Positions 1 through 12,988 of a stretch of DNA of 64,000 bases are shown here, in pieces (position 1 is the first letter of the stretch; each line of letters begins with the position of its first letter). The notes beneath the pieces were generated by a model. The model was not told where the DNA came from. It saw only the letters and a list, made by a program, of their open reading frames with translations, and ran no database searches. Position numbers and translations under genes: made by a program. Source of the stretch: Pseudobacteriovorax antillogorgiicola (GTDB taxonomy: Bacteria > Bdellovibrionota_B > Oligoflexia > Oligoflexales > RGVZ01); assembly GCA_945898195.1 (NCBI GenBank), contig CAMDHM010000013.1, forward strand, positions 93-64,092, given 5' to 3'.

Positions 1-104
1 CCTTGGGGAATTACCCCATTCTACTTTTCTTGGAGTCCGTTTTCTTGAGGAAGTTCACTACGTAGTCTCCGGTTTTAGTAGCCTCGGCAAACCACTGTTT
101 GATC

Positions 105-614
105 CTACAAATCATCCGCTTCACATTCGTAAAATTCTGACTTCCCGAAGTAGATTGTTTTTCCCGTTCCAGCATCGCTAATGAATATTTTTAACGGAAT
201 CCACCATTCGTCCAGCGTAATTGCTGGGGAAAAAATCAAAAACCGTTCATCCTTTGCCCACTGAGCACTGAAGTATCTGGAAAGAATCTTTGAATTTTTT
301 GTCAAGCGATCTTTCTTGGCATCAGCAATCAGAAAAAGCGCACCCTCGGCAGAACTTTCATTCCATCGAATCTCGTACCGTCTGCTTGGTGAGAGATAGA
401 TATCTTCCACATCGCTCTTAACTATTATGGTTTTTTCCCACGGGGAGTCACAAAGATTAATCGTATTATCCAGGTATTTTTTGGCCCAAACGAGATCTTC
501 AGAATTCCTAAAAAACGCCCGAACCTCGCGGTGACGGTCGTATGACTTGTATACCCAACCAATCGCGCCTGCGACCAGTAACGGGAGCAAAATTTTTAAT
601 TTTTTTGATCGCAA
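105..614 (-). CDS. Hypothetical N-terminally membrane-anchored protein; possible partner/immunity protein of the upstream lysozyme-like gene
   Basis: 169-aa ORF with basic N-terminus and hydrophobic ILLPLLVAGAIGWV; TTG start 2 nt after the stop (617-619) of the extended upstream frame. Confidence 0.65.
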   Translation of the reverse strand: MRSKKLKILLPLLVAGAIGWVYKSYDRHREVRAFFRNSEDLVWAKKYLDNTINLCDSPWEKTIIVKSDVEDIYLSPSRRYEIRWNESSAEGALFLIADAKKDRLTKNSKILSRYFSAQWAKDERFLIFSPAITLDEWWIPLKIFISDAGTGKTIYFGKSEFYECEADDL

Positions 615-616
615 GT

Positions 617-1462
617 TTAATTCCGAAGTTCTCTGGCATACCGCCTCAAGTTTGTCGCAATTTGTGTTCCTCGCGAATTTGCTTGGTCAGAAAATTTACC
701 TCTTGAATAGCATGAGGCCACTTCTGCTGCGGAAGTTCCAAGGTTCCTTCTTTCTCTCAATTTTTCTATAAAACTGAGCTACGCGGCAGCAACCTGGACC
801 GAAACCTTATCATCAAGCAATAAGTCATAGAGCTCACTTTGGGAAATATTTGGATCAGCGGAATAATATCTTTTTTTGATAAGGTCTCGCGCCGTTGACA
901 TCCTGATTTGAGCGAGCCCAACGGTTGTATCAACTATGCCCATTTTCCCTAAAACGTCCAGGAGATCATCGGGTCCAACGCGGGCGATCTCATCAATCAA
1001 TATGGCCGCGAGCAGATTGGGATCGACCTCATATTTTTCGGCAGCTAAATTAATCGCATTTAATAATGGGCGAAGGCGTTTGATGACGTCTTTTTTTGGT
1101 ATCCGTGCTATGCCGCTAATATACACCAATTCATCGCGCTTGAATTTTTTCTCTAGAAATTTCCCGTATGCATCAGCATATAACGACACACGCTCATTTT
1201 CTTCCGGCAATTTGATTTGTTTGGAGAGGCTGCCGGCAGGAACGGAAAGAGATACAAGGTTGTCCTCTTTCGCATTGTTATTGTTGCTGCGTATGTACGT
1301 GCCACTTAGTCCATTAACGAGATGCACTCCCTTCAAAACCCCTCGTTTAATCAAGGCAATAGCTTCCTTAAGAAGCAAATACTGAAAGTCATCTGTAACA
1401 AAAGCCTGGCTGGCGCCCCGTGAATTCGTAATAACCAAAATAATTTGTTTAAAGGTAGCCAC
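617..1462 (-). pseudogene. DUF3892-like N-domain fused to lysozyme-like/lytic transglycosylase domain, interrupted by an in-frame TAG at 779-781
   Basis: GGGGAG RBS before GTG at 1462; EAIALIKRG..VHLVNG..YIRSN..DNLVSL resembles DUF3892; AAEKYEVDPNLLAAILIDE and VGLAQI are SLT-like; frame continues AAA*LSFIEKLRERR..ARELRN to TAA at 617. Confidence 0.65.
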
Positions 1463-1911
1463 AAGAACTCCCCATTGAAAAATCCCTGACAATTTGACCA
1501 CAAAAACTTTCCACAAATCTGCACGAAAACTCCCGCCATCTTTGGCCGGCGGTGTGGTTCAAAATTCAGTTGGTAATTGAAAGAAAATAGAAACTGCTGG
1601 CGGAGAGAGGTACTCGACTTTAGAACTGACTGCATCGCATGGGCAGCCTGACCTATCTCCCCGGAAAAACTATATATCCCTCCTCACTTCGCACCAAGCC
1701 TTTTGTTCCCACAGCGTTCTACAGGCTATTCTCGCGCGGCTTTCATGTTCTCGCATGTTCTCCGATCCCCTAGCCGCCAAAACGCCTTAATAGGAAGACC
1801 TGTGCAGCCTGTGTTGGTGTGTTGTTGGGGCGGGGTAGAACGGAGCTTGTTACCCCAAGGTTACACGCCATGCGGGCAATCCACAGCGGTACCGTCGTCT
1901 CCGGAAACCTC

Positions 1912-2787
1912 TCATCCGGTGGAGCCGTAGTTCACAATCAATAACTCTCCAATATTTCGTTCTTGCGACTTCAGATTGATCTCTCGTCGAGCACTGACCC
2001 CTATGAATCGGTACCGAGCATAAAGACCGCGAACAAATGGAGTATCGCTATTGCTAACCGCCCATCGGACGCCGCGTTGATCTAGTTCGTTGCAAAGAGC
2101 CGCTAGGCGGACATGATCCTTTGCTCGGAACTGGTCAGGAGTATAACGGTTGAAGTCAGAATATCCGCCCAGCTTGTAGTAAGGCGGATCGAAATAGACA
2201 AAATCGCCTTCATCAACACCAAGAATACCGCTTTCGAAGTCACCCTTATGAAGCTCCGCCTTTTTTAAGTATTGTGATGCTCGCTTCAAATTCTCAGGGT
2301 CGTAGTAGCGACGATCATACGCACCATAGGGGACGTTAAATTCGCCCTTGCGATTTACTCTAAATAAACCGCGAAAGCATGTCTTGTTCAGGTAAATAAA
2401 TTGTGCTGCGCGTCGATGCAGTTCAAGCGATTCCGGTCTAATTTTTCGAACATGAAGAAATTCTTCCTTCGTATTTTTGAAGGAATCAAGATGAGTTGCA
2501 ACTTGTGCCCAATCGTCTCGAATAGCGGTGTATGTGTCAATCAACCAGCCGTTTGAATCTGTAAGCGTGGCCTCAATCGGATTGAGTTCAAAAAAAACCG
2601 ACCCGCCTCCGAGAAAAGGCTCAAAGTATTTCCCAGAGAGAGGCGGGAAATGCACAGCCAAAGAACTGGCAAGTGCCTGTTTGCCTCCAGCCCATTTGAT
2701 AAATGCCGTTGCTGTGCCAACTTCTGCTGTACTCATCCGATGACTCTGTCCTTTTTCTTTATTCTCAAGCGTGTTAGTCATTGGCAA
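1912..2787 (-). CDS. dam: DNA adenine methyltransferase, Dam/DpnM (D12) family, probably GATC
   Basis: FIKWAGGK, YFEPFLGGGS, GLFRVNRKGEFNVPYG and DPPY motifs; true start may be a downstream ATG. Confidence 0.92.
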   Translation of the reverse strand: MPMTNTLENKEKGQSHRMSTAEVGTATAFIKWAGGKQALASSLAVHFPPLSGKYFEPFLGGGSVFFELNPIEATLTDSNGWLIDTYTAIRDDWAQVATHLDSFKNTKEEFLHVRKIRPESLELHRRAAQFIYLNKTCFRGLFRVNRKGEFNVPYGAYDRRYYDPENLKRASQYLKKAELHKGDFESGILGVDEGDFVYFDPPYYKLGGYSDFNRYTPDQFRAKDHVRLAALCNELDQRGVRWAVSNSDTPFVRGLYARYRFIGVSARREINLKSQERNIGELLIVNYGSTG

Positions 2788-2963
2788 TATCTTGCAGTCA
2801 TATCAGCATGATACGATGGCGTCAAGGCAGACGCAACCCGACTATACACTGAGTTAGACGACTTGAAGGTGCAAATCAAGTGACATCAATCGTTTTCGCC
2901 ATGAAGGATTTTGCCAATCAGCGACCAAGATATGCACACGCTACCATCCTATGAGGTCGTTCA

Positions 2964-3794
2964 GTGAAGACTGACATTGACAAGAGTGCCCGTTGGAGAA
3001 AATTAGGATGGTCTAGCCCGTTTTGGGAGCTTGTTAGATTCTATTGCTCCTTGCGTGGGAATGAGCAAAAGAAATTCTTACTTGACCTTAAAACGAAGGG
3101 CGGGTCCCCCTCTGCGACGCTGACCCTCTTGGGTTTATCTCCGGAGTCTATTGAGACTCTCACGGACTATATTCAGTATCGAACAGAACGGCTTGCTTCA
3201 GCAATCTCGAATCTCCGCTCTGAAGAAGAGGCGTTAGCTTACTGCAAGGCTGGCAACATTTCCTGGGTGGTTACCAAGACAAAAAGCAGGGATCACCACC
3301 AGTCCTCTCGCTGCATGATTGCTACGGTTTCCCACATTGCTGGCGAAGTCTGCTCTTCGTTCAAAATTGGCTTCGAAATCAGTCCTCAGCGACGGTGTGT
3401 GTGGAACAGAAGTGGTCACCTCCATGTTTCTGTCAGAAACTTAGACGGAGCGGTGCCTGGATTGCAGAACCCGTTCATTATTTGGGAAATTAAGGAATAT
3501 TGGGGCAAGACGAGTGGCGGAAGCAAAATGAGCGACGCGGTGTATGAATGCCATCTTGTCGGGAAAGAAATTCGGGACTGCGAACAGCGTGCCTCGATAA
3601 AGATATTTCATGCAGTCTTTGTCGATGGTCGTGAGCAATGGCTGAGTAGGAAGTCCGACCTTGCGCGTTTTTTAGACCTTGAAAGCCAGGGGCTGATTGA
3701 TCATTTATTTGTCGGACGTGACGTAGAGACGCAGTGGGAAAAAGTTCTTAAGACGGTCCTAAAAGAAGCTGCGGCAAAGAAACCCAACCCCTAA
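2964..3794 (+). CDS. Putative type II restriction endonuclease (PD-(D/E)XK-like)
   Basis: LDGAVP..WEIKEY catalytic-like motif; divergent from the MTase inside a mobile island. Confidence 0.65.
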   Translation: MKTDIDKSARWRKLGWSSPFWELVRFYCSLRGNEQKKFLLDLKTKGGSPSATLTLLGLSPESIETLTDYIQYRTERLASAISNLRSEEEALAYCKAGNISWVVTKTKSRDHHQSSRCMIATVSHIAGEVCSSFKIGFEISPQRRCVWNRSGHLHVSVRNLDGAVPGLQNPFIIWEIKEYWGKTSGGSKMSDAVYECHLVGKEIRDCEQRASIKIFHAVFVDGREQWLSRKSDLARFLDLESQGLIDHLFVGRDVETQWEKVLKTVLKEAAAKKPNP

Positions 3795-3797
3795 GAG

Positions 3798-3821
3798 GGG
3801 GGTGTAAGACGTTTTGTGTAA
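3798..3821 (+). mobile_element. Orphan IS256-family-like terminal inverted repeat
   Basis: GGGGG-TGT-AAGACGTTT-TGTGTAA fits the N5-TGT-N9-TGTGTAA geometry I recall for IS256-family ends; no partner end or IS256 transposase seen. Confidence 0.45.
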
Positions 3822-3951
3822 CCAGTCCTTTACGGGGATAGACTACGCCTCCATCTCTAGGGCACGTTCGCCATTAAGTTGAAAAACCCAGCGTTTTTCT
3901 TCTCTTCATCGCCAATGAAGAGCTGTGTGTCTCCGCGTCTGACGTACATTT

Positions 3952-4980
3952 ATGTCATATCAATCAGCACATAAAAAAAATTCAGGAGTGCAACTCGCCA
4001 TGACCTGTCGCGAGAAAACGCGAAAACGTCTAACTGGGGTAGAGTCGCGCTATCGTCAATTGCTCGGCGCACTTGTATTGATGGCGACTCGTGGCTGCAA
4101 CTATCGGGACGCCGAGGATTTGATTTCTTTCTACGCGCCGGCACGGTATCTCTGCGATTTGATGAACTCCGATATCGGTCTCGATCATGTGACCATCTTC
4201 GAATTCACCGAAATGTTTGGGCCGACAGGGATGGAGTCGATCAACAAAGTGATTCTTCAGCATGCTGTAAAAGCAGGACTTTGCAAACCGAAGATAATGA
4301 TGAGTGATACCACGGCCCAAGAGGCGAGAATTCCATATCCCATTGAAGCTGGCTTGATGAACCGCTTCACGTCTGTCGCGAGTCGAACCGTAGAAAAAAT
4401 GCGCGGCAAATTCGACGCCATCAAGACAGAAGTAAAAGAGGCATCAGCAAGAGTGCGGGGCTTACTCCGGAACTCGCACTTGTCTGCCAAGGGGCGGGAT
4501 CAAACGCGTAAGATCGAGCGGAAGATGTACCATACCGTCAAAGAGATCCAGAAAAAGATTGCGTCGATAATCGAGTCTGGCGCATCTGTCAAAAGTCGAT
4601 GTGGCCAGGAATTAAAAAAGATGAACTTGGCCATGAAGCGGCGGCTTCGTGCAAGGGTTTACTTTGGAGAATCGAAAACACGGTTGTGGACACGGCGTTT
4701 TGCAAACATTTGCTTTGCAAAAAAGTCAGGGGTCAAGCACGTGGGTATTGCGCCCCGCGGCAAGCGAGCCTGACCGGTGACCCAGAAAATGGCGGAACGC
4801 ATTCGATGCGAGCGGGCCCAGGCAGAAGGATCGATAGGCACGATAAAATCATCACGCTACGGCTTCACAACACCACGAGCATTCAGCTCTGCGGCATTGG
4901 AGAGGTGCGGGCATCGTCCGATTTTGGGATTCAACATGAGGAAAATGGTAGTTCTAGCCGCTGCAATGGCGCCGGCGTGA
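3952..4980 (+). pseudogene. IS5-family transposase remnant
   Basis: DHVTIFEF, SDTTAQEARIPYP and C-terminal RAQAEGSIGTIK motifs; in-frame TGA at 4771-4773; too short for an intact enzyme. Confidence 0.75.
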
Positions 4981-5050
4981 TGCGAAGCCTCGGCGGAACA
5001 GCTGAATAAGCTGCCGAGAAGAGGAAAACGAATCCAGAAAATGGCGTAGG

Positions 5051-5413
5051 CTCGGTCCAAACGCCGGGCGTCACGTGACCAAAGTCGGCACTGGTTTTGG
5101 CTACTACGAAGAAACTCCTCTCGCTAAAGGACGTCTCTGTTATTCGGTCAACTGATTTTCACTGCATTGCAATACCGTGGTAAATACTCACTCTCGCGAC
5201 GGCCTTCGCAAGCTTGTGGAATATATGGCACGCGCTCCGCTATTAAATGAGCGCTTGGAGCTGCTGCCTGACGGCAAAGTAAAGCTGAAGCTCAAAAACC
5301 TGTGGCACGACGGGACTTCGCACCTTGTGCTGACGCCGAGTGAGTTTCTTGAAAAACTCGCCGCCATTGTCCCGCCGCCTCGCGCCCATTTGGTGAAGTG
5401 GGGCGGTAGTTGA
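5051..5413 (+). pseudogene. IS91/ISCR-family (Y2 HUH) rolling-circle transposase, C-terminal fragment
   Basis: GPNAGRHV..SVN*FSLHC..LVEYMARAP..ERL..DGKV.LKLK..WHDGTSHLVLTP.EFLEKLAAIVPPPRAHL; TGA at 5153-5155 replaces the G of NGFSLH. Confidence 0.85.
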
Positions 5414-5509
5414 GATATTGATCGGTTTTAGGGGGGAGAATTTACGCAGCTAGAGGTTTGGGGCGCGAAAACGTTGGCGGGAACGGCTGCGGGATAGATC
5501 GTGAAGTGT

Positions 5510-5526
5510 GCTTGAATTTCCTACAA
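5510..5526 (+). repeat. oriIS-like 17-mer, copy 1 (GCTTGAATTTCCTACAA)
   Basis: About 100 bp downstream of the IS91 relic; resembles ISCR oriIS ends (TTGAA(C/T)TTCCTATAC); exact second copy at 6930-6946. Confidence 0.75.
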
Positions 5527-5651
5527 TCTTTATCCAGTCCACATGGACACTAGCATGTTCCTCGATGCGTTCCCGCGAACGAGCCGATGGAAGTTGTGAT
5601 GTCGATCATGGAGCGCTTACGTTTAAAGCGGTATTACAGGTTTTGTGTGCC

Positions 5652-5711
5652 TTGCAATGAGGTGCAGATGAGGTTATCATGAAAATTCGAAGTCCCATGT
5701 CGGATTTTCAT
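5652..5711 (+). promoter_or_regulatory. Sigma70 promoter with overlapping 12-9-12 inverted repeat (operator-like)
   Basis: TTGCAA(5652)-17 nt-TATCAT(5675); ATGAAAATTCGA-N9-TCGGATTTTCAT (5679-5711), one mismatch. Confidence 0.65.
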
Positions 5712-5724
5712 AGGCGACTGTAAC

Positions 5725-6900
5725 ATGCTGATACGAAACAAATATTTGCAATCAATTCATAGTAGCCTGCGTCAATTCCCTATTGTGGCGCTGCTGGGCC
5801 CGCGGCAATGTGGCAAAACGACGTTGGCGAGAGAGGTAGCTAACACTCAGACCGCAGCGCGTTTGAGCAGGCTCAATTATTTTGATTTGGAAGACTCGGA
5901 GGATCTGGCTCGGCTGGAGGATCCCAAGCTAGCCCTTAGCTCTCTTTCTGGTCTTGTGGTGATTGATGAGATCCAACGAATGCCGGGCCTGTTTAAAACA
6001 CTGCGATTTTTGGCTGATCGGCAAGACTCGACAACGAAATTTCTGATACTTGGTAGTGCAAGTCGAGACCTCATTCAGCAATCGAGCGAGTCACTGGCGG
6101 GGCGTGTTTGTTATGTGGAAATCACACCGTTTCAAATGGCAGAACTTCCGTCGAGTGACAATAGCTGCTTGTGGCTGCGCGGTGGATTTCCAAAAAGTTT
6201 TTATGCATCTTCTGAACAAGAAAGCTGGATTTGGCGAAACGAATACATCCGGACCTACCTGGAACAGGATCTACCAAATTTGGGCGTCCGTATTCCACCT
6301 ATGCATATTCGACGTTTTTGGATGATGCTATCACATTTTCATGGCCAAATATTCAACGCGTCCCAGCTCGCGTCTTCCTTGGATATAAGTGATCATACAG
6401 TTAAGCGGTACCTCGATATTCTTACTGGCACCTTCATGGTGCGGCAGCTCCAACCATGGTTTGAAAACACAAAGAAGCGGCAAATAAAATCGCCTAAAAT
6501 TTATTTTCGAGATTCTGGAATTTTTCATTTCTTGCAAGGAATTCAAAATCACGAAAGCCTGCTGACTAACCCAAAGCTCGGCGCGTCGTGGGAAGGGTTT
6601 GCTCTAGAACAAGTGATATATAAGTTACGCGCCACCCCTGAAGAAGCCTATTTCTGGGGTGTCCATGGAGCAGGTGAGTTGGATTTATTAATCGTGAAAG
6701 GCGGGAAACGAATAGGATTTGAAATAAAGCACACCAGCAGTCCAACACTTACTCATTCCATTAAATTGGCAATCGACGAATTGAAACTAGACCAGTTTTT
6801 TGTGATTTTTAATGGTTCAAAAAAATTTCAAATGGCTGACAAAGTTGTTGCGTGTCCGCTGCCCGAATTTATTTTGGATGAGTTTGAGCAAGATTTTTAA
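5725..6900 (+). CDS. AAA_14 ATPase with DUF4143 and C-terminal nuclease-like domain
   Basis: GPRQCGKTT Walker A, VIDEIQ Walker B, GSAS, ESLAGR, RGGFP, KSPKIYFRDSG, ELDLL..GFEIK. Confidence 0.92.
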   Translation: MLIRNKYLQSIHSSLRQFPIVALLGPRQCGKTTLAREVANTQTAARLSRLNYFDLEDSEDLARLEDPKLALSSLSGLVVIDEIQRMPGLFKTLRFLADRQDSTTKFLILGSASRDLIQQSSESLAGRVCYVEITPFQMAELPSSDNSCLWLRGGFPKSFYASSEQESWIWRNEYIRTYLEQDLPNLGVRIPPMHIRRFWMMLSHFHGQIFNASQLASSLDISDHTVKRYLDILTGTFMVRQLQPWFENTKKRQIKSPKIYFRDSGIFHFLQGIQNHESLLTNPKLGASWEGFALEQVIYKLRATPEEAYFWGVHGAGELDLLIVKGGKRIGFEIKHTSSPTLTHSIKLAIDELKLDQFFVIFNGSKKFQMADKVVACPLPEFILDEFEQDF

Positions 6901-6929
6901 TGGAGAAACTAGTTGTTATGTTGATTTGA

Positions 6930-6946
6930 GCTTGAATTTCCTACAA
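6930..6946 (+). repeat. oriIS-like 17-mer, copy 2 (direct repeat)
   Basis: Exact GCTTGAATTTCCTACAA 29 bp after the ATPase stop; marks the island's right edge. Confidence 0.75.
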
Positions 6947-6994
6947 ACGTTAACTCCCTTTATTTTTCCTAGTTTCGACCTTGAATCACTCTAT

Positions 6995-8254
6995 TTAAAA
7001 ACGATCGATATTGCGCGCGACGATGACAGCAGCCAGGAATTTCGGCACGTAGTCGACAGTTTCTTTCGGTAGTTGTCCGACAAGATGCCAAAAATCAGCG
7101 ACCCGTGATTGTTTGATGGTGCTGGCAATCTGAAAACGCTGAACCCGATTTTGGCCGCTATTATACGACGCGATCGCCAGCAAATAGCGCTGACTCCCGA
7201 AAGTCCGAATTAGCAAATTTAGATAAGCAGCGGCCGCCCTTGAACTTTTCACCGGGTCTGAACGTTCGTCAATTTTTCGGCTCAGATCGACCCGCAATCC
7301 ATACTCCCTGGCCGTCGCTGGCATGAGTTGCCAAAGTCCCCGAGCCCCAACCGGCGACATCGCCTCAATGTCATAACCTGACTCGATCCAGACAAGATAA
7401 CCAAGTTCCACGGGCAAATTTTGCTCGCGCAAGGCAACTTCTATTGGCTCGATAAACTTCTCACGGCGGCGCAGCAGGTCCTTGTGGTACCCGCGGACCG
7501 TAAACTTTGAAATCCAGAATTGGACCTTTGCGATGAAAGCATCATCCATAATCGACGGTGGGGTCTCACCGAATCTCACCGAGATATTTACGATTTCGTC
7601 CCAAATAAAATTCTTGTCTGGAGGGGCATTAACGATCCCATCTCCGGCAGGTTTCTTGATCTCCCGTGAAACCGGCGTAAGAGCCCGAAGTTCCACGGCA
7701 GGTTGCCGATCAACTCCGGACCGAAGATCCAAAACACCAACCCCAGTGAAAACCCCAAGAGCGAGGGCCAGACCGAACATGATACCAATCGAAACTGTCT
7801 TTATGCGATTCCCAGGACGCCAAGTAACATCACCGAATATTTTAGCCTCTTCGATATCAGATGGCCGTCTCCGTGACGACAAGCGGCTCATCGATGACAA
7901 CCTTCGCCTGAGGTGGCCCGTCATCCGGCTTGGCTGCAGGGCGTCCCAGATGCTACATTGAAAGGTCGATGTCTCTCCAACAGTAACCCTGTCCCCAGCT
8001 CGCAGTTTAGAAGTTTTGCGAAGTTGTTTTCCATTCAGGCGACTACCACCGTCGGAACCAAGGTCTTTGACCAGAACCTTGCCCGGGGCTCTGTAATAAA
8101 TACAAATATGCTTCTCAGCAATTGTGGGATCAGCTGGAACGACGGCTCCGCAGGTTGGGTCGGAGCCAACATAAAATAGCTCACCAGGTCCAATAGAATA
8201 GCTTTGTCCGCTAAGCGGACCAGAAATAAAACGAATGGTTACACGATCTGCCAC
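6995..8254 (-). CDS. FHA domain - TM - MltD-like lytic transglycosylase
   Basis: N-terminal FHA (DLGSDGGSRLNG..LRAGDRVTVG); TM IGIMFGLALALGVFTGVGV; SLT motifs IESGY, GARGLWQLMPATA, AAAAYL, ASYNSG, ETVDYVPKFLA. Confidence 0.88.
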   Translation of the reverse strand: MADRVTIRFISGPLSGQSYSIGPGELFYVGSDPTCGAVVPADPTIAEKHICIYYRAPGKVLVKDLGSDGGSRLNGKQLRKTSKLRAGDRVTVGETSTFQCSIWDALQPSRMTGHLRRRLSSMSRLSSRRRPSDIEEAKIFGDVTWRPGNRIKTVSIGIMFGLALALGVFTGVGVLDLRSGVDRQPAVELRALTPVSREIKKPAGDGIVNAPPDKNFIWDEIVNISVRFGETPPSIMDDAFIAKVQFWISKFTVRGYHKDLLRRREKFIEPIEVALREQNLPVELGYLVWIESGYDIEAMSPVGARGLWQLMPATAREYGLRVDLSRKIDERSDPVKSSRAAAAYLNLLIRTFGSQRYLLAIASYNSGQNRVQRFQIASTIKQSRVADFWHLVGQLPKETVDYVPKFLAAVIVARNIDRF

Positions 8255-8257
8255 CGT

Positions 8258-9883
8258 TCACCCCGCAACTGCATCCTCGGTTTCCGGACGAACCTCAAAT
8301 CGCAAATACATATTACCAATCTTCAAAACATCTCCATGGCAGATGAGCCTTGGTTCTGACAAAACAAAACCATTGACGCAGTCCTGTGGTCTTCTACCTA
8401 CTGCGGAAGGAAAAAGTTTCAATTGAGCTTTCCAGTTTTCAACCGTGATTTCAGCATGCTTGCGGCGTACTTTTCTGCTTTCAGGTAAATGAATACCGCA
8501 ACCGCCGGAGGTTCCTATTAAATTTCGCCCTTGCTTTACCGGAAGCACCATTCCAACGTTAGGACCACTAAGCACCGACAGCCAGCCCGCAAGGTCACTA
8601 TCGCGATATGGACAATTGCTAAAACTTCGCTTCACACGAAGGCCGCATGTCCTGCAACGGACCGTCCGAAGCCAGAGACGAAATCCAAGCCAAATATAAC
8701 GGACAACAAAACCAAGGGCAGTCAAAAGTACCAAGCAAAGGACGCCTCCGACGGCCCTCTCCGTCGCATTCAGGTCCAAAATTCCTGTGATTAGCTTCTC
8801 TCTCGTGCTCCGCGATTTATCAAACTGCGCTATATTTTCTTGCCACCGCCGTGGCAACGGTACAGATAGCAATCCCGACGACACGGATTGCCCGTGATAC
8901 CCCACCATCAGATTAAAGTAGGACACATTGCCTTCCGCTATGGCGCTCCTTCCATCCCAGGTGCCAATGAGTGGAAATAGATTGAATGTCGCTACGTATT
9001 CCTCATTTAAATTCGCAAGAACGTTCAGGAGTGCTGGAAACAGATCGACGCGCGACGAAACTTTTTGAATGAATCCGCCAGACATCAATTCCGGGCGAAG
9101 GAAAGGTGCCTCAGCTGATACGCCAGCGCCAGGTATCCGGTCTGCTCGCAATAGATAGACCGCAACATCATCAGCTGCGAGTTGGGAAAGGCAATCCTCA
9201 AGCGTTCGAATGCGCTCCCTCGAAGTTTCGGTTGGATTAGCCAATAGAATCAGGGCCTTTTGCTCGCCGGTCTTTGGCGCATAGCGCGACCACTCCTTGT
9301 ATTTTTTCGACGCGGCACAAACCAGCTCGCTTACCCCGGTAGAATTACCCTTAGGTTCAGCGTCAAGTAGCTTTCTTTGCAACGCACGAACATTGTCAGC
9401 TTCATCGGGAGTTGTCCCGGCCAACTCGCGCTGACCCTGCGATGAAACCGAAATGATCGATAAAAATTCGCTGCGGGTAAGCGGCAGATTCTCTGCAATC
9501 GTTTGCTGAAACTCCTGCAAGGCAGATTGCTGAATATTTGTGGCGAATGGGAGGGCGATCACCAGACGACGGGTTCTTGATTGCGATGCACTCCCAAAAG
9601 TTGTCAGAGACTCTGGCTTGATTTGCGTTTTGGTGGATCGGCCCAACTCCAAGATAAATGCGTCACGGTCCACGGTGGTAATGGGAAATGAAACATTGTT
9701 CTCAGATTCGAAAACCCGACCGTAAATAACCAGCTTGAATTCTTCCGTCGGCTCTAAACTTCGCACAACGATGTTTTTTGTCGCGGCCAAGGCGACGATC
9801 GGGGACATAAAAAAAGTGGCCGTCAAAAACGGAATAAACAATAGGTTAAAAACGCGAGTCATTTTCGTCGCCATGAATTTCAT
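8258..9883 (-). CDS. Signal peptide - VWA-like extracytoplasmic domain - TM - Cys motif - FHA protein
   Basis: Signal ending ALA; alpha/beta pattern (KALILLA, VAVYLL); TM near residues 378-395; CRTC..CPY; C-terminal FHA (GWLSVLSGPNVG..NLIG..HAEI..GDVLKIG). Confidence 0.75.
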   Translation of the reverse strand: MKFMATKMTRVFNLLFIPFLTATFFMSPIVALAATKNIVVRSLEPTEEFKLVIYGRVFESENNVSFPITTVDRDAFILELGRSTKTQIKPESLTTFGSASQSRTRRLVIALPFATNIQQSALQEFQQTIAENLPLTRSEFLSIISVSSQGQRELAGTTPDEADNVRALQRKLLDAEPKGNSTGVSELVCAASKKYKEWSRYAPKTGEQKALILLANPTETSRERIRTLEDCLSQLAADDVAVYLLRADRIPGAGVSAEAPFLRPELMSGGFIQKVSSRVDLFPALLNVLANLNEEYVATFNLFPLIGTWDGRSAIAEGNVSYFNLMVGYHGQSVSSGLLSVPLPRRWQENIAQFDKSRSTREKLITGILDLNATERAVGGVLCLVLLTALGFVVRYIWLGFRLWLRTVRCRTCGLRVKRSFSNCPYRDSDLAGWLSVLSGPNVGMVLPVKQGRNLIGTSGGCGIHLPESRKVRRKHAEITVENWKAQLKLFPSAVGRRPQDCVNGFVLSEPRLICHGDVLKIGNMYLRFEVRPETEDAVAG

Positions 9884-10693: not shown

Positions 10694-11779
10694 CTACCGG
10701 GTGAAAATCAAATTTTTTCCATCCAGCATTTTTTCTGCCGGCACAACTTCACCAATCACTGCTGCAGAGACGAAACCAGCAGATCTTATCGCCTTCAATG
10801 CGTCTGCAGCCTGCTCAGCTGGGAGCGAAAGAAACAATCCACCTGACGTTTGAGGATCAACAACTAACTTCCGACGCACCTCAGTCCACTTTGCTGCATC
10901 GGCTCCATCAAGGTTCCACGCAACTTTCGCCCTCGTGTAAACATCATTGCTTGTGTGAGCCCGGGTCAAGTGACCCGCCTCAAGGCATTCAAAGCATCCC
11001 TTTAGTGTAGGCAAAGAATCAGGATTGATCAAAAATCCGCATCCGCTAGCTTCGGCCATCTGCATCGCATGCCCAGCCAACCCAAATCCGGTGATGTCGG
11101 TTGCGGCATTGACGGTAAATGGCGCCATCGCGTCGATCACATCGTTGATGGTGGTCATGCTCTCAATTGCGCCCTGGATCCAGGGTAACGAGGCTTCCCC
11201 CTTTTTAAGCGCGGCCGTAATGGTTCCGGTTCCCAAGCCCTTGGTGAGAATTAAAGCATCCCCGGGCCTGGCGCCCGCATTCGTCCAATGGCGACCCTTG
11301 TGCACAAAGCCACTGACCGAAAAACCCATTTTCAGGGTGTCATCATCGATCGTATGGCCTCCCCCCAAAGCAATCCCCGCCCGATTCAATACAGCCATCG
11401 CGCCGTCCATGAGGGGACGAATCATTTCCAAAGGCAAAACGCTCGAAGGAAACGCCAAGATAGTCATCGCCGTCGCCGGTTTACCACCCATCGCGTAAAC
11501 GTCGCTGATCGCATTGGCTGCTGCAACCGCACCGAAATCAAAGGCAGAATCAACAATTGGGGTGAAAAAATCCAAGGTTTGAACCAAAAGCCGTCCATCG
11601 CCAAGGTCCCACAAACAAGCATCATCCATCGTCTCATGGCCAACTAAGAGCTCTGCGGGGCGATTCTGCTTTAGTCCTGACAAAACTTCGCGCAGTGCAC
11701 CTGCCGGCAATTTTGCGGCACAGCCACCTTTTTGAACGGTTTGCGTCAATTTAATTTCGGTCATGTTTATCTTGTCCAT
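10694..11779 (-). CDS. selD: Selenide, water dikinase (selenophosphate synthetase), Cys form
   Basis: GGCAAK, DDA, QTLDFFTPIVD, ANAISDVYAMGG, GGHT, TDITGFGLAGH, DPQTSGGL. Confidence 0.96.
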   Translation of the reverse strand: MDKINMTEIKLTQTVQKGGCAAKLPAGALREVLSGLKQNRPAELLVGHETMDDACLWDLGDGRLLVQTLDFFTPIVDSAFDFGAVAAANAISDVYAMGGKPATAMTILAFPSSVLPLEMIRPLMDGAMAVLNRAGIALGGGHTIDDDTLKMGFSVSGFVHKGRHWTNAGARPGDALILTKGLGTGTITAALKKGEASLPWIQGAIESMTTINDVIDAMAPFTVNAATDITGFGLAGHAMQMAEASGCGFLINPDSLPTLKGCFECLEAGHLTRAHTSNDVYTRAKVAWNLDGADAAKWTEVRRKLVVDPQTSGGLFLSLPAEQAADALKAIRSAGFVSAAVIGEVVPAEKMLDGKNLIFTR

Positions 11780-11794
11780 CGTGAGTTCCCTTTT

Positions 11795-12988
11795 TTATCC
11801 CAGGCGACTTCTGCCATGGGTCGACAAAAAATTATGGCAAGCGCGACGGTCGCCGCGGAAAACGACGTCCCGTTCCGTCAATTCGGTAGAACGAGAATAG
11901 GCCCGGTCATAATAGTGCTCAAGAAGGAGCTGAATCCATCCTGCCTGCACCTCAAACTCCCTCGGCATACGTCGTCCATCCTCCAAAAGCCTCAAAGCAT
12001 CTGCGGTGTTCTTTCCCCCAAGGCGCCTCTCCAAAACCTTGATGTTTTCCGCAAGCACCTTCCATAAATCATCCACCGCGCAACCGCCATCTAGTGGCCG
12101 AGTCACATAATCCATGAAAATAGCTGCCGCTCGTTCTTGCAAAGGTGAGTCCACCACCACGAGGGGGGCATGTCGCATTTGACTGCGAAATCCCTCCGGA
12201 ATACTGACGCGACCAATCATGGTGCTCTCGTCTTCCACCACAAGCCTGCCCTCAGCCCCGTCATACAAAAGTAGACCAAGTTCATTTTCAAAAGTTTGTT
12301 GAGACGGTTGTGGCATACGCTGACCATCAATGCCTACAGCGTGACCAAACGAACTACCCCGGTGACGCGCCATACCCTCAAGGTCCACAATGCGATTTTT
12401 CTCGAATCCCGGGTCATTGAATAATTCGTGAAGCAGAATTGTTTTTCCGGAGCCGGTCATTCCAGCCAAAAGATCCATATCATGTGGTGCAGAAATTTTT
12501 TCCAGCAGCAATCCGCGCAGACTTTTGTAGCCACCAGACAAGCGGACGACGTCAACGGCATGAGCTCCGCCTTGATGCGAACCTGCCGCAGCGGCGATAA
12601 GCTCAGCCAACCAAGACGCCGCCAATTGAGACCTCAGTCCACCACGCCAACAAGACACAAGAATCCGGAGCGGAGCTGGTCCACGCTGAGCGCGCAGGCG
12701 TTGGGCCTGACCAAACCATTCTGCTGCACGTGCTGTGCGCTTTTCCCATACTAATTCCACGCCAAGATCGATTGCGGCCTGCTGCCCGCGCCTTTTATAA
12801 GTAAGCCCGACCTGATGGCGCTCATTATCATCCAAAACCGGACACGAGATCGCCCCTGGAATGTGCCCTTCAGCGAATTCACGAGGAGCCCGCACATCGA
12901 CTAAAATCCACGGCTCTCTTGCAAGTAAAAACGCCTCGGGGGCCATGATCGGAGTTTCAATGTACGGCTGTGGCAAATTGTCCATCAA
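11795..12988 (-). CDS. selU: tRNA 2-selenouridine synthase
   Basis: Rhodanese DVRAP.EF..GHIPGA, CWRGGLRS, GMTGSGKT, DLEG.A.HRGSSFG, QPSQQTFEN, EDES..IG; adjacent to selD. Confidence 0.95.
   Translation of the reverse strand: MMDNLPQPYIETPIMAPEAFLLAREPWILVDVRAPREFAEGHIPGAISCPVLDDNERHQVGLTYKRRGQQAAIDLGVELVWEKRTARAAEWFGQAQRLRAQRGPAPLRILVSCWRGGLRSQLAASWLAELIAAAAGSHQGGAHAVDVVRLSGGYKSLRGLLLEKISAPHDMDLLAGMTGSGKTILLHELFNDPGFEKNRIVDLEGMARHRGSSFGHAVGIDGQRMPQPSQQTFENELGLLLYDGAEGRLVVEDESTMIGRVSIPEGFRSQMRHAPLVVVDSPLQERAAAIFMDYVTRPLDGGCAVDDLWKVLAENIKVLERRLGGKNTADALRLLEDGRRMPREFEVQAGWIQLLLEHYYDRAYSRSTELTERDVVFRGDRRACHNFLSTHGRSRLG

What the first reader, a model, noticed from the sequence alone, without database searches (positions are those of the whole stretch)
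5051..6946. AAA-DUF4143 gene bracketed by two identical oriIS-like 17-mers behind an IS91/ISCR transposase relic
Seen: GCTTGAATTTCCTACAA occurs at 5510-5526, just after the Y2 transposase fragment, and exactly again at 6930-6946. The copies enclose a 1.4-kb unit of promoter, operator-like palindrome and one ATPase-nuclease gene. Known: ISCR oriIS ends resemble TTGAACTTCCTATAC, IS91-family elements make no target duplications, and they normally capture DNA on the terIS side. Inference: a non-autonomous oriIS-terminated cassette stacked at an existing oriIS, i.e. a possible integron-like way for HUH transposases to accumulate or excise defence-like cassettes.
Basis: partly seen in the sequence, partly recalled or inferred. 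Interest (0 to 1): 0.72.

Follow-up and report, generated by a model that had tools for sequence, protein, structure and literature searches.

The report
Eroded rolling-circle transposon ends around gene
The two identical 17-letter repeats are tail ends of a rolling-circle jumping gene whose worn-down tails are scattered through this bacterium's genome, and the putative defence gene between them most likely sits between two separate, decayed insertions rather than in a working cassette system.

Summary
The repeat is real. GCTTGAATTTCCTACAA lies at 5510 and 6930 and is the origin end (oriIS) of an IS91/ISCR-like element. An intact 1.93-kb copy (542-aa transposase, 37% identical to ISCR2's) was found in a metagenome. 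The genome holds 16 such ends but only 3 left ends, cut back to anything from 17 to over 500 bp. Copy 2 is a 19-bp stub.

The integron-like reading is not supported:
- Neighbouring relics show no significant bias to direct orientation (12 direct, 9 inverted).
- No circle or empty site appeared in contigs of six runs.
- The 1.4-kb unit also holds an IS66-like relic.
- The gene's 80%-identical homologue elsewhere has no stub.
- Two cases show shortening after insertion.

Part of the idea holds. Transposase-less units with 230-400 bp ends have moved with upstream DNA. AAA-DUF4143 (PADLOC candidate PDC-S01) genes are enriched beside these ends in this genus (4 of 12 loci against 2 of 64 other repeats), but not in four other genomes of the order (0 of 14).

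Right-end fragments and two-oriIS 'sandwiches' are already described for IS801 and ISCR28. Verdict: a new member of a known kind.

The parts
1912..2787 (-). Type II DNA adenine methyltransferase (context, left part of the island)
   Evidence: PF02086 E 1e-53; PADLOC MTase_II
2964..3794 (+). Type II restriction endonuclease-like gene (DUF7687) (context)
   Evidence: PF24736; PADLOC REase_II E 1.4e-23
3857..5051 (+). IS5/ISNCY-like insertion sequence relic that abuts, and likely truncated, the IS91-like element at about element position 896
   Evidence: Weak NCBIfam ISNCY/IS5 hits below cut-off; G003 copies end at 5051; junction
5052..5406 (+). Internal fragment of the IS91/ISCR-like transposase gene (element positions about 897-1250)
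   Evidence: PF04986; 90% nucleotide identity to intact element L150
5407..5528 (+). Right end of the element (about positions 1819-1939), joined to the fragment by a 570-bp internal deletion at a short GTGG repeat; the same deletion recurs at C35
5510..5528 (+). oriIS core, copy 1 (GCTTGAATTTCCTACAATC); the element ends at 5528
   Evidence: contigs in runs X1, X2 and X6 diverge after 5528
5550..5622 (.). Internally deleted terminal relic of another repeated IS, likely IS66 family (family label from recalled terminal motif and the adjacent transposase tail at C10)
   Evidence: 84-100% matches to the ends of C6, C10 and C22; deletion at a GATGTCGA repeat
5652..5711 (+). Predicted promoter (TTGCAA-17-TATCAT) and overlapping operator-like palindrome (5679-5711); the palindrome is partly conserved upstream of the G003 homologue
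   Evidence: function not tested
5725..6900 (+). AAA_14-wHTH-DUF4143 gene (PADLOC candidate PDC-S01); in a 94%-identical homologue the frame runs on to the TAG at 6910-6912
6930..6948 (+). oriIS stub, copy 2 (19 bp, GCTTGAATTTCCTACAAAC); lacks the outer box at -39..-30 that sister subfamilies conserve
6979..7109 (+). 131-bp copy of the SLT gene's 3' end, repeated with 4 mismatches at C30:1444-1574 next to the gene that neighbours SLT in relatives; likely boundary of the island
6995..8254 (-). FHA-SLT lytic transglycosylase gene, conserved in the genus; copy 2 faces its 3' end at 47 bp

Best explanation
Both repeats are origin (oriIS) ends of one family of IS91/ISCR-like rolling-circle elements, and they most likely come from two separate insertions into a mobile-gene hot spot that were later cut back from the left, leaving a 490-bp relic before the AAA-DUF4143 gene and a 19-bp stub after it. 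Shown: the identity and exact end of the element; many ends of different lengths; shortening after insertion at two other loci; movement of transposase-less units with ends of 230 bp or more. Inferred: rolling-circle transposition starts at oriIS, so every new copy and every re-mobilised fragment keeps that end while left parts are lost through short-repeat deletions and neighbouring IS insertions. The AAA gene likely arrived as ordinary upstream (terIS-side) cargo of copy 2, or copy 2 landed in the tolerated gap between two convergent genes. The 19-bp stub is likely too short to start transposition now.
For: (1) G000 has 15-17 right ends against 3 left ends, and coverage rises toward oriIS. 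(2) Stub lengths form a continuum from 17 to over 500 bp, several being mosaics of internal deletions. (3) Same right junction with different left truncation: L156 vs L160 (99.7% identical flank; 1695 vs 298 bp kept) and G003 C10 vs G012 (98.5% over 2.6 kb; 233 vs 38 bp). (4) Neighbouring relic pairs within 5 kb: 12 direct two-copy vs 9 inverted, p=0.66. (5) All 16 right junctions lie between predicted ORFs and 11 of 16 face a gene's 3' end, as copy 2 does. (6) The other IS relic inside the unit is eroded the same way. (7) The 80%-identical homologue in G003 sits elsewhere, near a transposase relic but with no 17-mer. (8) Copy 2 matches copy 1 at 3/10 positions of the outer box, where sister subfamilies match 6-7/10 in 6 of 7. 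(9) IS801 precedent: right-end fragments move, but most genomic fragments were judged to come from reorganisation (PMC3189936, passages).
Against: (1) AAA-type ATPase genes are enriched beside these ends more than beside other repeats (4 of 12 loci vs 2 of 64, p=0.005; G003 4 of 14 vs about 4% expected), which a neutral graveyard does not predict. (2) Left boundaries recur at 19 bp (2 loci) and 38-43 bp (5 loci with non-element flanks), hinting at preferred cut points or selection. (3) G003 C14 repeats the layout relic-AAA-19-bp stub at nearly the same spacing. (4) Counting all same-strand pairs gives 19 vs 9 (p=0.087). (5) The excess of right ends needs a directional process, not deletion alone. 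(6) No intermediate allele of this locus was found.
Confidence: 0.6

Rival explanations
1. ISCR-style circle plus homologous recombination built the island. Rolling-circle copying from copy 2 in a donor would run left through the whole island and stop 30 bp beyond the SLT stop codon. The circle would then recombine into an intact SLT gene through the 131-bp piece, leaving the duplication and copy 2 30 bp from the repeat. This is the complex class 1 integron (ISCR1) and ISCR28 'sandwich' model. It is compatible with later erosion.
For: The 131-bp SLT repeat, with 4 mismatches, lies 30 bp right of copy 2. Left-end fragments of the element (positions 25-543) lie about 270 bp from the other repeat copy on C30 in the same orientation, colinear with the window's fragments. 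C30 and C13 end in opposite ends of an IS3-like element in matching orientation. Model described in PMC13023784 (passages) and, second-hand, PMC12772301.
Against: C30-C13 contiguity is not proven: C4 starts with the same IS3 end, and no target duplication links C30 to C13. A one-sided homologous, one-sided illegitimate uptake of foreign DNA would give the same duplication (inference). No donor allele was found.
Confidence: 0.2
2. Active integron-like system. The HUH transposase would recombine oriIS with oriIS, treating 19-43-bp stubs as minimal sites, so that single defence genes circularise and stack behind a resident oriIS.
For: Several direct arrays carry defence-like cargo: this locus, G003 C22 (end-AbiEi/AbiEii-end-AAA-fragment), G003 C14, and L153 in another host. 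Stub lengths recur. AAA genes are enriched beside the ends. Earlier scan notes describe one-directional arrays in other genomes (unchecked leads).
Against: No orientation bias. The right-hand copy is not systematically the shorter one. No circle or empty site in contigs of six runs (contigs drop rare variants). The unit contains an unrelated IS relic. Enrichment is absent in G033, G059, G065 and G070 (0 of 14). The stub lacks the outer conserved box. No intact transposase is assembled in G000.
Confidence: 0.12
3. Copy 2 was inserted as such: a miniature right-end fragment made by premature termination, like the 229-679-nt IS801 fragments.
For: IS801 does this at high frequency (PMC3189936). 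Two independent 19-bp stubs start at the same base.
Against: In 6 of 6 cases where both flanks and an oriIS-free homologue of the right flank were visible, the left flanks differed, so none was a simple insertion. No shared tetranucleotide marks the left boundaries. The described minis are more than 10 times longer.
Confidence: 0.08

Closest known systems
ISCR2 / ISVsa3 (IS91 family, ISCR group) and ISCR1
   Same: Zn_Tnp_IS91 + Y2_Tnp transposase of about 500-540 aa, 36-37% identical over 92-96%. The end lies about 220-235 bp after the stop with a TTCCTA+5 terminus. Diverse genes lie right of oriIS, and left ends are often lost. ISCR2-gene-ISCR2 cassettes are known (PMC7722449, passages).
   Different: The oriIS is only 10/19 identical to ISCR2's. 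The protein scores below the NCBIfam cut-offs for ISCR clade Ia (341 vs 925 bits) and IS91 (96 vs 125). The host is an environmental Oligoflexales-type bacterium, and neighbours are defence-like or unknown genes, not resistance genes.
Miniature right-end fragments of IS801 in Pseudomonas syringae (PMC3189936; PMC6354349)
   Same: Fragments share one right terminus and vary on the left; they move with a transposase in trans; many genomic fragments were attributed to reorganisation; several ori copies occur per replicon.
   Different: Fragments here go down to 17-43 bp. No target or terminator tetranucleotide was found (37 distinct 6-mers right of 38 ends), unlike GAAC/CAAG for IS801.
ISCR28 'sandwich' capture of armA (Yuan et al. 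2024; seen only as cited in PMC12772301)
   Same: A gene lies between an element relic with oriIS and a second oriIS in the same direction.
   Different: Here the second oriIS is a 19-bp stub with no transposase. The mechanism could not be compared because the original paper was not read.
Integrons (attI/attC cassette arrays)
   Same: Single defence-like genes are separated by a repeated short site at some loci.
   Different: No tyrosine recombinase was seen near the ends, the site length is not fixed, orientation is unbiased, and no excision product or empty site was found.
PADLOC candidate system PDC-S01 (AAA_14 + DUF4143)
   Same: The cargo gene hits PDC-S01 models (E 9e-81).
   Different: A candidate only; anti-phage activity of this protein is untested.

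Membership tests
IS91 family / ISCR-like rolling-circle IS | HUH (Y2) transposase with N-terminal zinc domain | tested here: met
   PF04986 in the window; PF14319 + PF04986 in the C18 copy; HLH and CxxC motifs in the intact L150 protein; 37% to ISCR2. Below NCBIfam curated cut-offs.
IS91 family / ISCR-like rolling-circle IS | Conserved oriIS end about 200-240 bp downstream of the transposase gene | tested here: met
   223 bp after the stop; fixed end after ...CAATC; similar ends in other elements of the order and in ISCR2
IS91 family / ISCR-like rolling-circle IS | No terminal inverted repeats and no target duplication | tested here: inconclusive
   The left and right ends of L150 are unrelated. 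No clean filled/empty pair was found to test target duplication.
IS91 family (IS91, IS801, IS1294) | Tetranucleotide target next to oriIS (CTTG/GTTC type; PMC13181058) | tested here: not met
   Right flanks show no consensus: 37 distinct 6-mers at 38 ends. This fits ISCR-like behaviour as recalled, not IS91 proper.
IS91 family / ISCR-like rolling-circle IS | One-ended mobilisation of DNA on the terIS side | tested here: met
   Comparative only: L161/L166 share 887 bp (about 470 bp passenger + 400 bp end) at two targets; the G003 C10 pair share 478 bp at two targets
IS91 family / ISCR-like rolling-circle IS | Single-stranded circular intermediates | not testable with these tools
   Only assembled contigs were available; no joint was seen
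Integron-like cassette system | Repeated sites in one orientation separating cassettes | tested here: not met
   12 direct vs 9 inverted pairs, p=0.66; 19 vs 9 if colinear splits are added, p=0.087
Integron-like cassette system | Empty-site alleles or excised circles with one site | tested here: inconclusive
   None in contigs of 6 runs from 3 studies or in 6 same-genus genomes; contigs drop rare variants and the loose-end tables were cut
Integron-like cassette system | The same cassette found at different positions with its site | tested here: not met
   The G003 homologue (80% aa) has no stub. The DNA context of the 94%-identical P0003 could not be obtained.
Integron-like cassette system | A dedicated recombinase acting on the sites | not testable with these tools
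   No tyrosine recombinase among 135 ORFs near the ends; activity of the HUH transposase on short stubs needs an assay
PDC-S01 candidate defence system | Single AAA_14 + DUF4143 gene | tested here: met
PDC-S01 candidate defence system | Protection against phage | not testable with these tools
   Needs a bench assay

The most novel reading that the evidence does not exclude
In this genus the HUH transposase uses oriIS stubs as short as 19-43 bp as minimal recombination or termination sites. It thereby builds and reshuffles small islands of AAA-DUF4143 and toxin-antitoxin genes at intergenic sites, a recombinase-free, integron-like route to defence-gene arrays that could help explain the 15-57 AAA-DUF4143 copies in these 2.5-Mb genomes.
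Probability: 0.13. Interest if true: 0.72.

Novelty: new member of a known kind. Interest (0 to 1): 0.28.

Why it matters
As it most likely stands, this is a previously unnamed ISCR-like element in an environmental lineage. It shows the behaviour known from IS801 and clinical ISCRs: right ends persist, left parts erode, and upstream DNA hitch-hikes. It offers a natural length series of oriIS ends (17, 19, 24, 25, 38-43, 53-98 bp and longer) that makes one question testable: how short an oriIS can be and still work, and whether two oriIS in tandem release the DNA between them. If stubs of 19-43 bp proved active, any such scar could mobilise its neighbouring gene, which would matter for how defence and resistance genes are captured.

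Tried and rejected
Chance origin of copy 2: rejected.

Terminator role: no hairpin-U tract at the stub.

Outward promoter role: the end contains TACAAT, but the scan called no promoter there and most ends face 3' gene ends. Left open, not favoured.

A terIS-like left boundary at 5529: no similarity to the element's left end. The sequences 5529-5549, 6901-6929 and 6949-6978 were found nowhere else in the genome or loci held.

Circle or empty allele in public runs: X1-X4 laid on 1-9000 and X1, X2, X5, X6 on 5490-7140 (6 of 21 listed runs). No such joint. Contigs in X1, X2, X3 and X5 bridge the copy-2 junction in the window's arrangement. The loose-end tables were cut (71 and 28 rows hidden) and contigs cannot show absence. 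X1 has almost no cover over 300-3900; not used as evidence. No RNA holder was listed.

Viral contigs: 0 matches.

Target-site consensus: none.

Generality of the AAA association: 0 of 14 ends in four other genomes of the order, found with a hand-made degenerate pattern; G036 gave no end; 4 of 154 DUF4143 hits were not listed.

C30-C13 linkage by IS3 target duplication: not confirmed.

Literature: the DUF4143 search gave 4 papers (listings; one read by passage, uninformative). One search was swamped by irrelevant hits. PMC2944590 and PMC1489542 are not held, so the Toleman and Schleinitz models are known to me only through citing papers and recall. No supplements were read. Searches showed no paper on stubs of 25 bp or less; that is not proof of absence. 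Earlier-finding look-ups by place, by sequence and by one word set were empty.

The DNA context of P0003 (94% identical) could not be obtained, which leaves open whether the gene-plus-stub occurs at a second site.

Full report
Observation. The 17-mer is present exactly at 5510-5526 and 6930-6946 and nowhere else in the window with up to 3 mismatches (chance mean 0.19). A scan of the GTDB collection gave 42 exact hits. Six carry the element's subterminal sequence; 36 have unrelated flanks, so the second copy is not chance. The ORF at 5177-5413 is a Y2_Tnp fragment and 5725-6900 encodes AAA_14 plus DUF4143, matching PADLOC's candidate PDC-S01. A promoter-like site and a palindrome precede the gene. 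The unit between the copies also holds 5550-5622, an internally deleted end of another repeated IS that recurs at the ends of C6, C10 and C22; I label it IS66-like from recalled motifs.

What the motif is. The genome has 16 copies with at most one mismatch, and a same-genus genome (G003) has 11; 9 of 41 genomes searched had a match. Loci titled Oligoflexales carry the same end. A metagenome scan returned 22 loci, among them an intact element, L150:1782 to about 3711. It is about 1.93 kb, with a 542-aa transposase bearing HLH and CxxC motifs, and ends 223 bp after the stop with GCTTGAATTTCCTACAATC. The protein is 36-37% identical to ISCR2/ISVsa3 and scores below the NCBIfam cut-offs for ISCR clade Ia and IS91. 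ISCR2's own end in a plasmid record shows the same TTCCTA+5 terminus, 10/19 identical; PMC13023784 gives a similar ISCR1 22-mer (passages). In 9 junctions visible, homologues of the right flank begin at the base after ...CAATC, which fixes the end. Right flanks show no target consensus. Copy 1 is therefore a true oriIS on a relic cut on the left by an IS5-like element and internally deleted. Copy 2 is an 18/19 match ending in AAC, a terminus also seen in sister subfamilies; one substitution could equally explain it.

The genome-wide pattern. Element coverage in G000 is 15 at the last 50 bp and 3 at the left end (motif counts 17 against 2-3). Four right ends lie near contig ends, so some left ends may be unassembled. 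Retained blocks run from 17 bp to over 500 bp, often as mosaics of internal deletions. Two processes are visible. Shortening after insertion: L156 and L160 share the same right junction and 99.7% identical flank but keep 1695 and 298 bp; G003 C10 and G012 share a 2.6-kb flank at 98.5% but keep 233 and 38 bp. Movement of transposase-less units: L161 and L166 share 887 bp (passenger plus a 400-bp end) at different targets, and two G003 C10 copies share 478 bp at different targets. The shortest end with such evidence is about 230 bp. This matches IS801, whose 229-679-nt right-end fragments move while most genomic fragments were attributed to reorganisation (PMC3189936, passages), and whose one-ended events are limited by toxin-antitoxin genes (PMC6354349, passages). 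One-ended transposition and circles are described for IS91 (PMC13181058, passages) and in Sphingobium (PMC5737581, passages).

Tests of the cassette idea. Among 28 pairs of neighbouring relics within 5 kb (all of G000 plus selected regions of relatives and metagenome contigs), the script classed 10 as direct two-copy, 9 as colinear, 6 as convergent and 3 as divergent. I moved two pairs in which both members keep oriIS (this locus and G003 C23) to direct, giving 12 direct, 7 colinear and 9 inverted; p=0.66, or 0.087 if colinear pairs count as direct. These loci are not independent. In the six direct pairs with both extents known and both copies keeping or running to oriIS, the right copy is shorter in two (this locus, G003 C23) and longer in four (G003 C22, G003 C10, L151/L150, G000 C18). 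No left-end-like sequence bounds the unit. Contigs from six runs of three studies show no circle or empty-site joint, and contigs in four runs bridge the copy-2 junction in the window's arrangement; contigs cannot exclude rare forms and one run may be the source sample. The closest homologue with context (80% aa, G003 C26) lies at another site, behind a transposase relic and another ATPase, with no stub. In a 94%-identical protein the frame ends at the TAG at 6910-6912, 17 bp before the stub. Sister subfamilies conserve a second box at -39..-30 (6-7/10 in 6 of 7, against 2-4/11 further out); copy 2 has 3/10 (these ends were found with the 17-mer, which biases the inner match). Since a circle of the unit would have to start at the right-hand copy, I infer it is probably inactive. 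A two-oriIS sandwich has been reported for ISCR28 (seen only as cited in PMC12772301), and ISCR2-gene-ISCR2 units are known (PMC7722449).

Evidence that does not fit a neutral graveyard. In G000, 6 of 16 ends (4 of 12 loci) lie within 300 bp of one of 14 AAA-DUF4143 genes, against 2 of 64 copies of other repeats (Fisher p=0.005 by locus). In G003 it is 4 of 14, against about 4% expected, using approximate gene limits. G003 C14 holds a 3.6-kb island (relic, AAA, 19-bp stub, ATPase, inverted 43-bp stub) between two genes that are adjacent in G000. G003 C22 reads end, AbiEi/AbiEii, end, AAA, fragment. Left boundaries recur at 19 and 38-43 bp. However, in four other genomes of the order with 17-66 DUF4143 hits each, 0 of 14 ends lie beside one, so the link is limited to this genus in what I searched. 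It is best read as the element having delivered or flanked some of these genes, with selection keeping the gene while the element erodes (inference).

The larger island. 6979-7109 duplicates the SLT gene's 3' end (4 mismatches) at C30, next to the membrane-protein gene that directly neighbours SLT in G004 and G006. C30 also carries left-end fragments of the element in the same orientation and ends in an IS3-like element whose other end starts C13. An island of about 9 kb between the repeats is plausible and would fit the ISCR1 circle-and-recombination model, but the contig link is unproven.

Earlier scan notes describe similar oriIS-end arrays in other genomes, some one-directional. I used them as leads only; they pointed me to the IS801 paper, which I then read.

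Verdict. Real feature; oriIS identity shown; integron-like mechanism not supported at this locus; a new member of a known kind. Interest 0.28. The open point worth a bench test is whether 19-43-bp ends are active.

Noticed in passing
G000:C9:14877-14917 (L051): A 41-bp perfect palindrome made of two 20-bp oriIS cores back to back, 1 bp from the stop of another AAA-DUF4143 gene. One flank is a 1.9-kb segment 94% identical to G003, whereas their SLT genes are about 75% identical.
   Followed up: partly
Genomes G000, G003, G033, G036, G059, G065, G070: Large expansions of AAA_14-DUF4143 (PDC-S01-like) genes: 15, 57, 28, 10, 33, 66 and 17 DUF4143 hits; 57 in a 2.5-Mb genome.
   Followed up: partly
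G003:C14:44700-48360 (L023:6735-10361): A 3.6-kb island made only of three element relics and two ATPase genes, inserted between two genes that are adjacent in G000 C39.
   Followed up: partly
G003:C10 (L024:7880-10485) and G012:C47 (L028:233-2838): A 2.6-kb fatty-acid hydroxylase / DCC1-like module, 98.5% identical between two genera, with the same oriIS junction; recent horizontal transfer together with the element end.
   Followed up: partly
window 1912-3794: Divergent type II methyltransferase and DUF7687 endonuclease pair; run X3 has a contig with foreign sequence joined at 2471 inside the methyltransferase.
   Followed up: no
window 3952-4980: The IS5/ISNCY-like transposase is split into two frames; contigs in runs X2-X4 lack one base at 4685.
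   Followed up: no
G000:C6:343-457 and 24 other places: A family of about 110-bp palindromic repeats with 29-bp inverted arms, 25 copies mostly at contig ends; possibly a MITE.
   Followed up: no
L153:304-1132 and L159:1155: In a different, higher-GC host, two oriIS-like ends 810 bp apart bracket an ORF that looks like a PIN toxin by eye (no PADLOC or NCBIfam hit); their subterminal sequence is a distinct subfamily.
   Followed up: partly
window 779-1516: DUF3892-SLT fusion gene with a paralogue on C1; a DUF3892 gene also lies between two AAA-DUF4143 genes on C8.
   Followed up: no
L024:7327-7684, L026:1-129, G000:C18:6200-6260, C30:1330-1380: REP-like hairpins (GTCCTGAGCGCAGCGAAG type; label recalled) sit inside or beside element relics.
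   Followed up: no
window 10694-12988: Two adjacent genes that look by sequence like selenophosphate synthetase (selD) and tRNA 2-selenouridine synthase (selU) (labels recalled, not tested).
   Followed up: no
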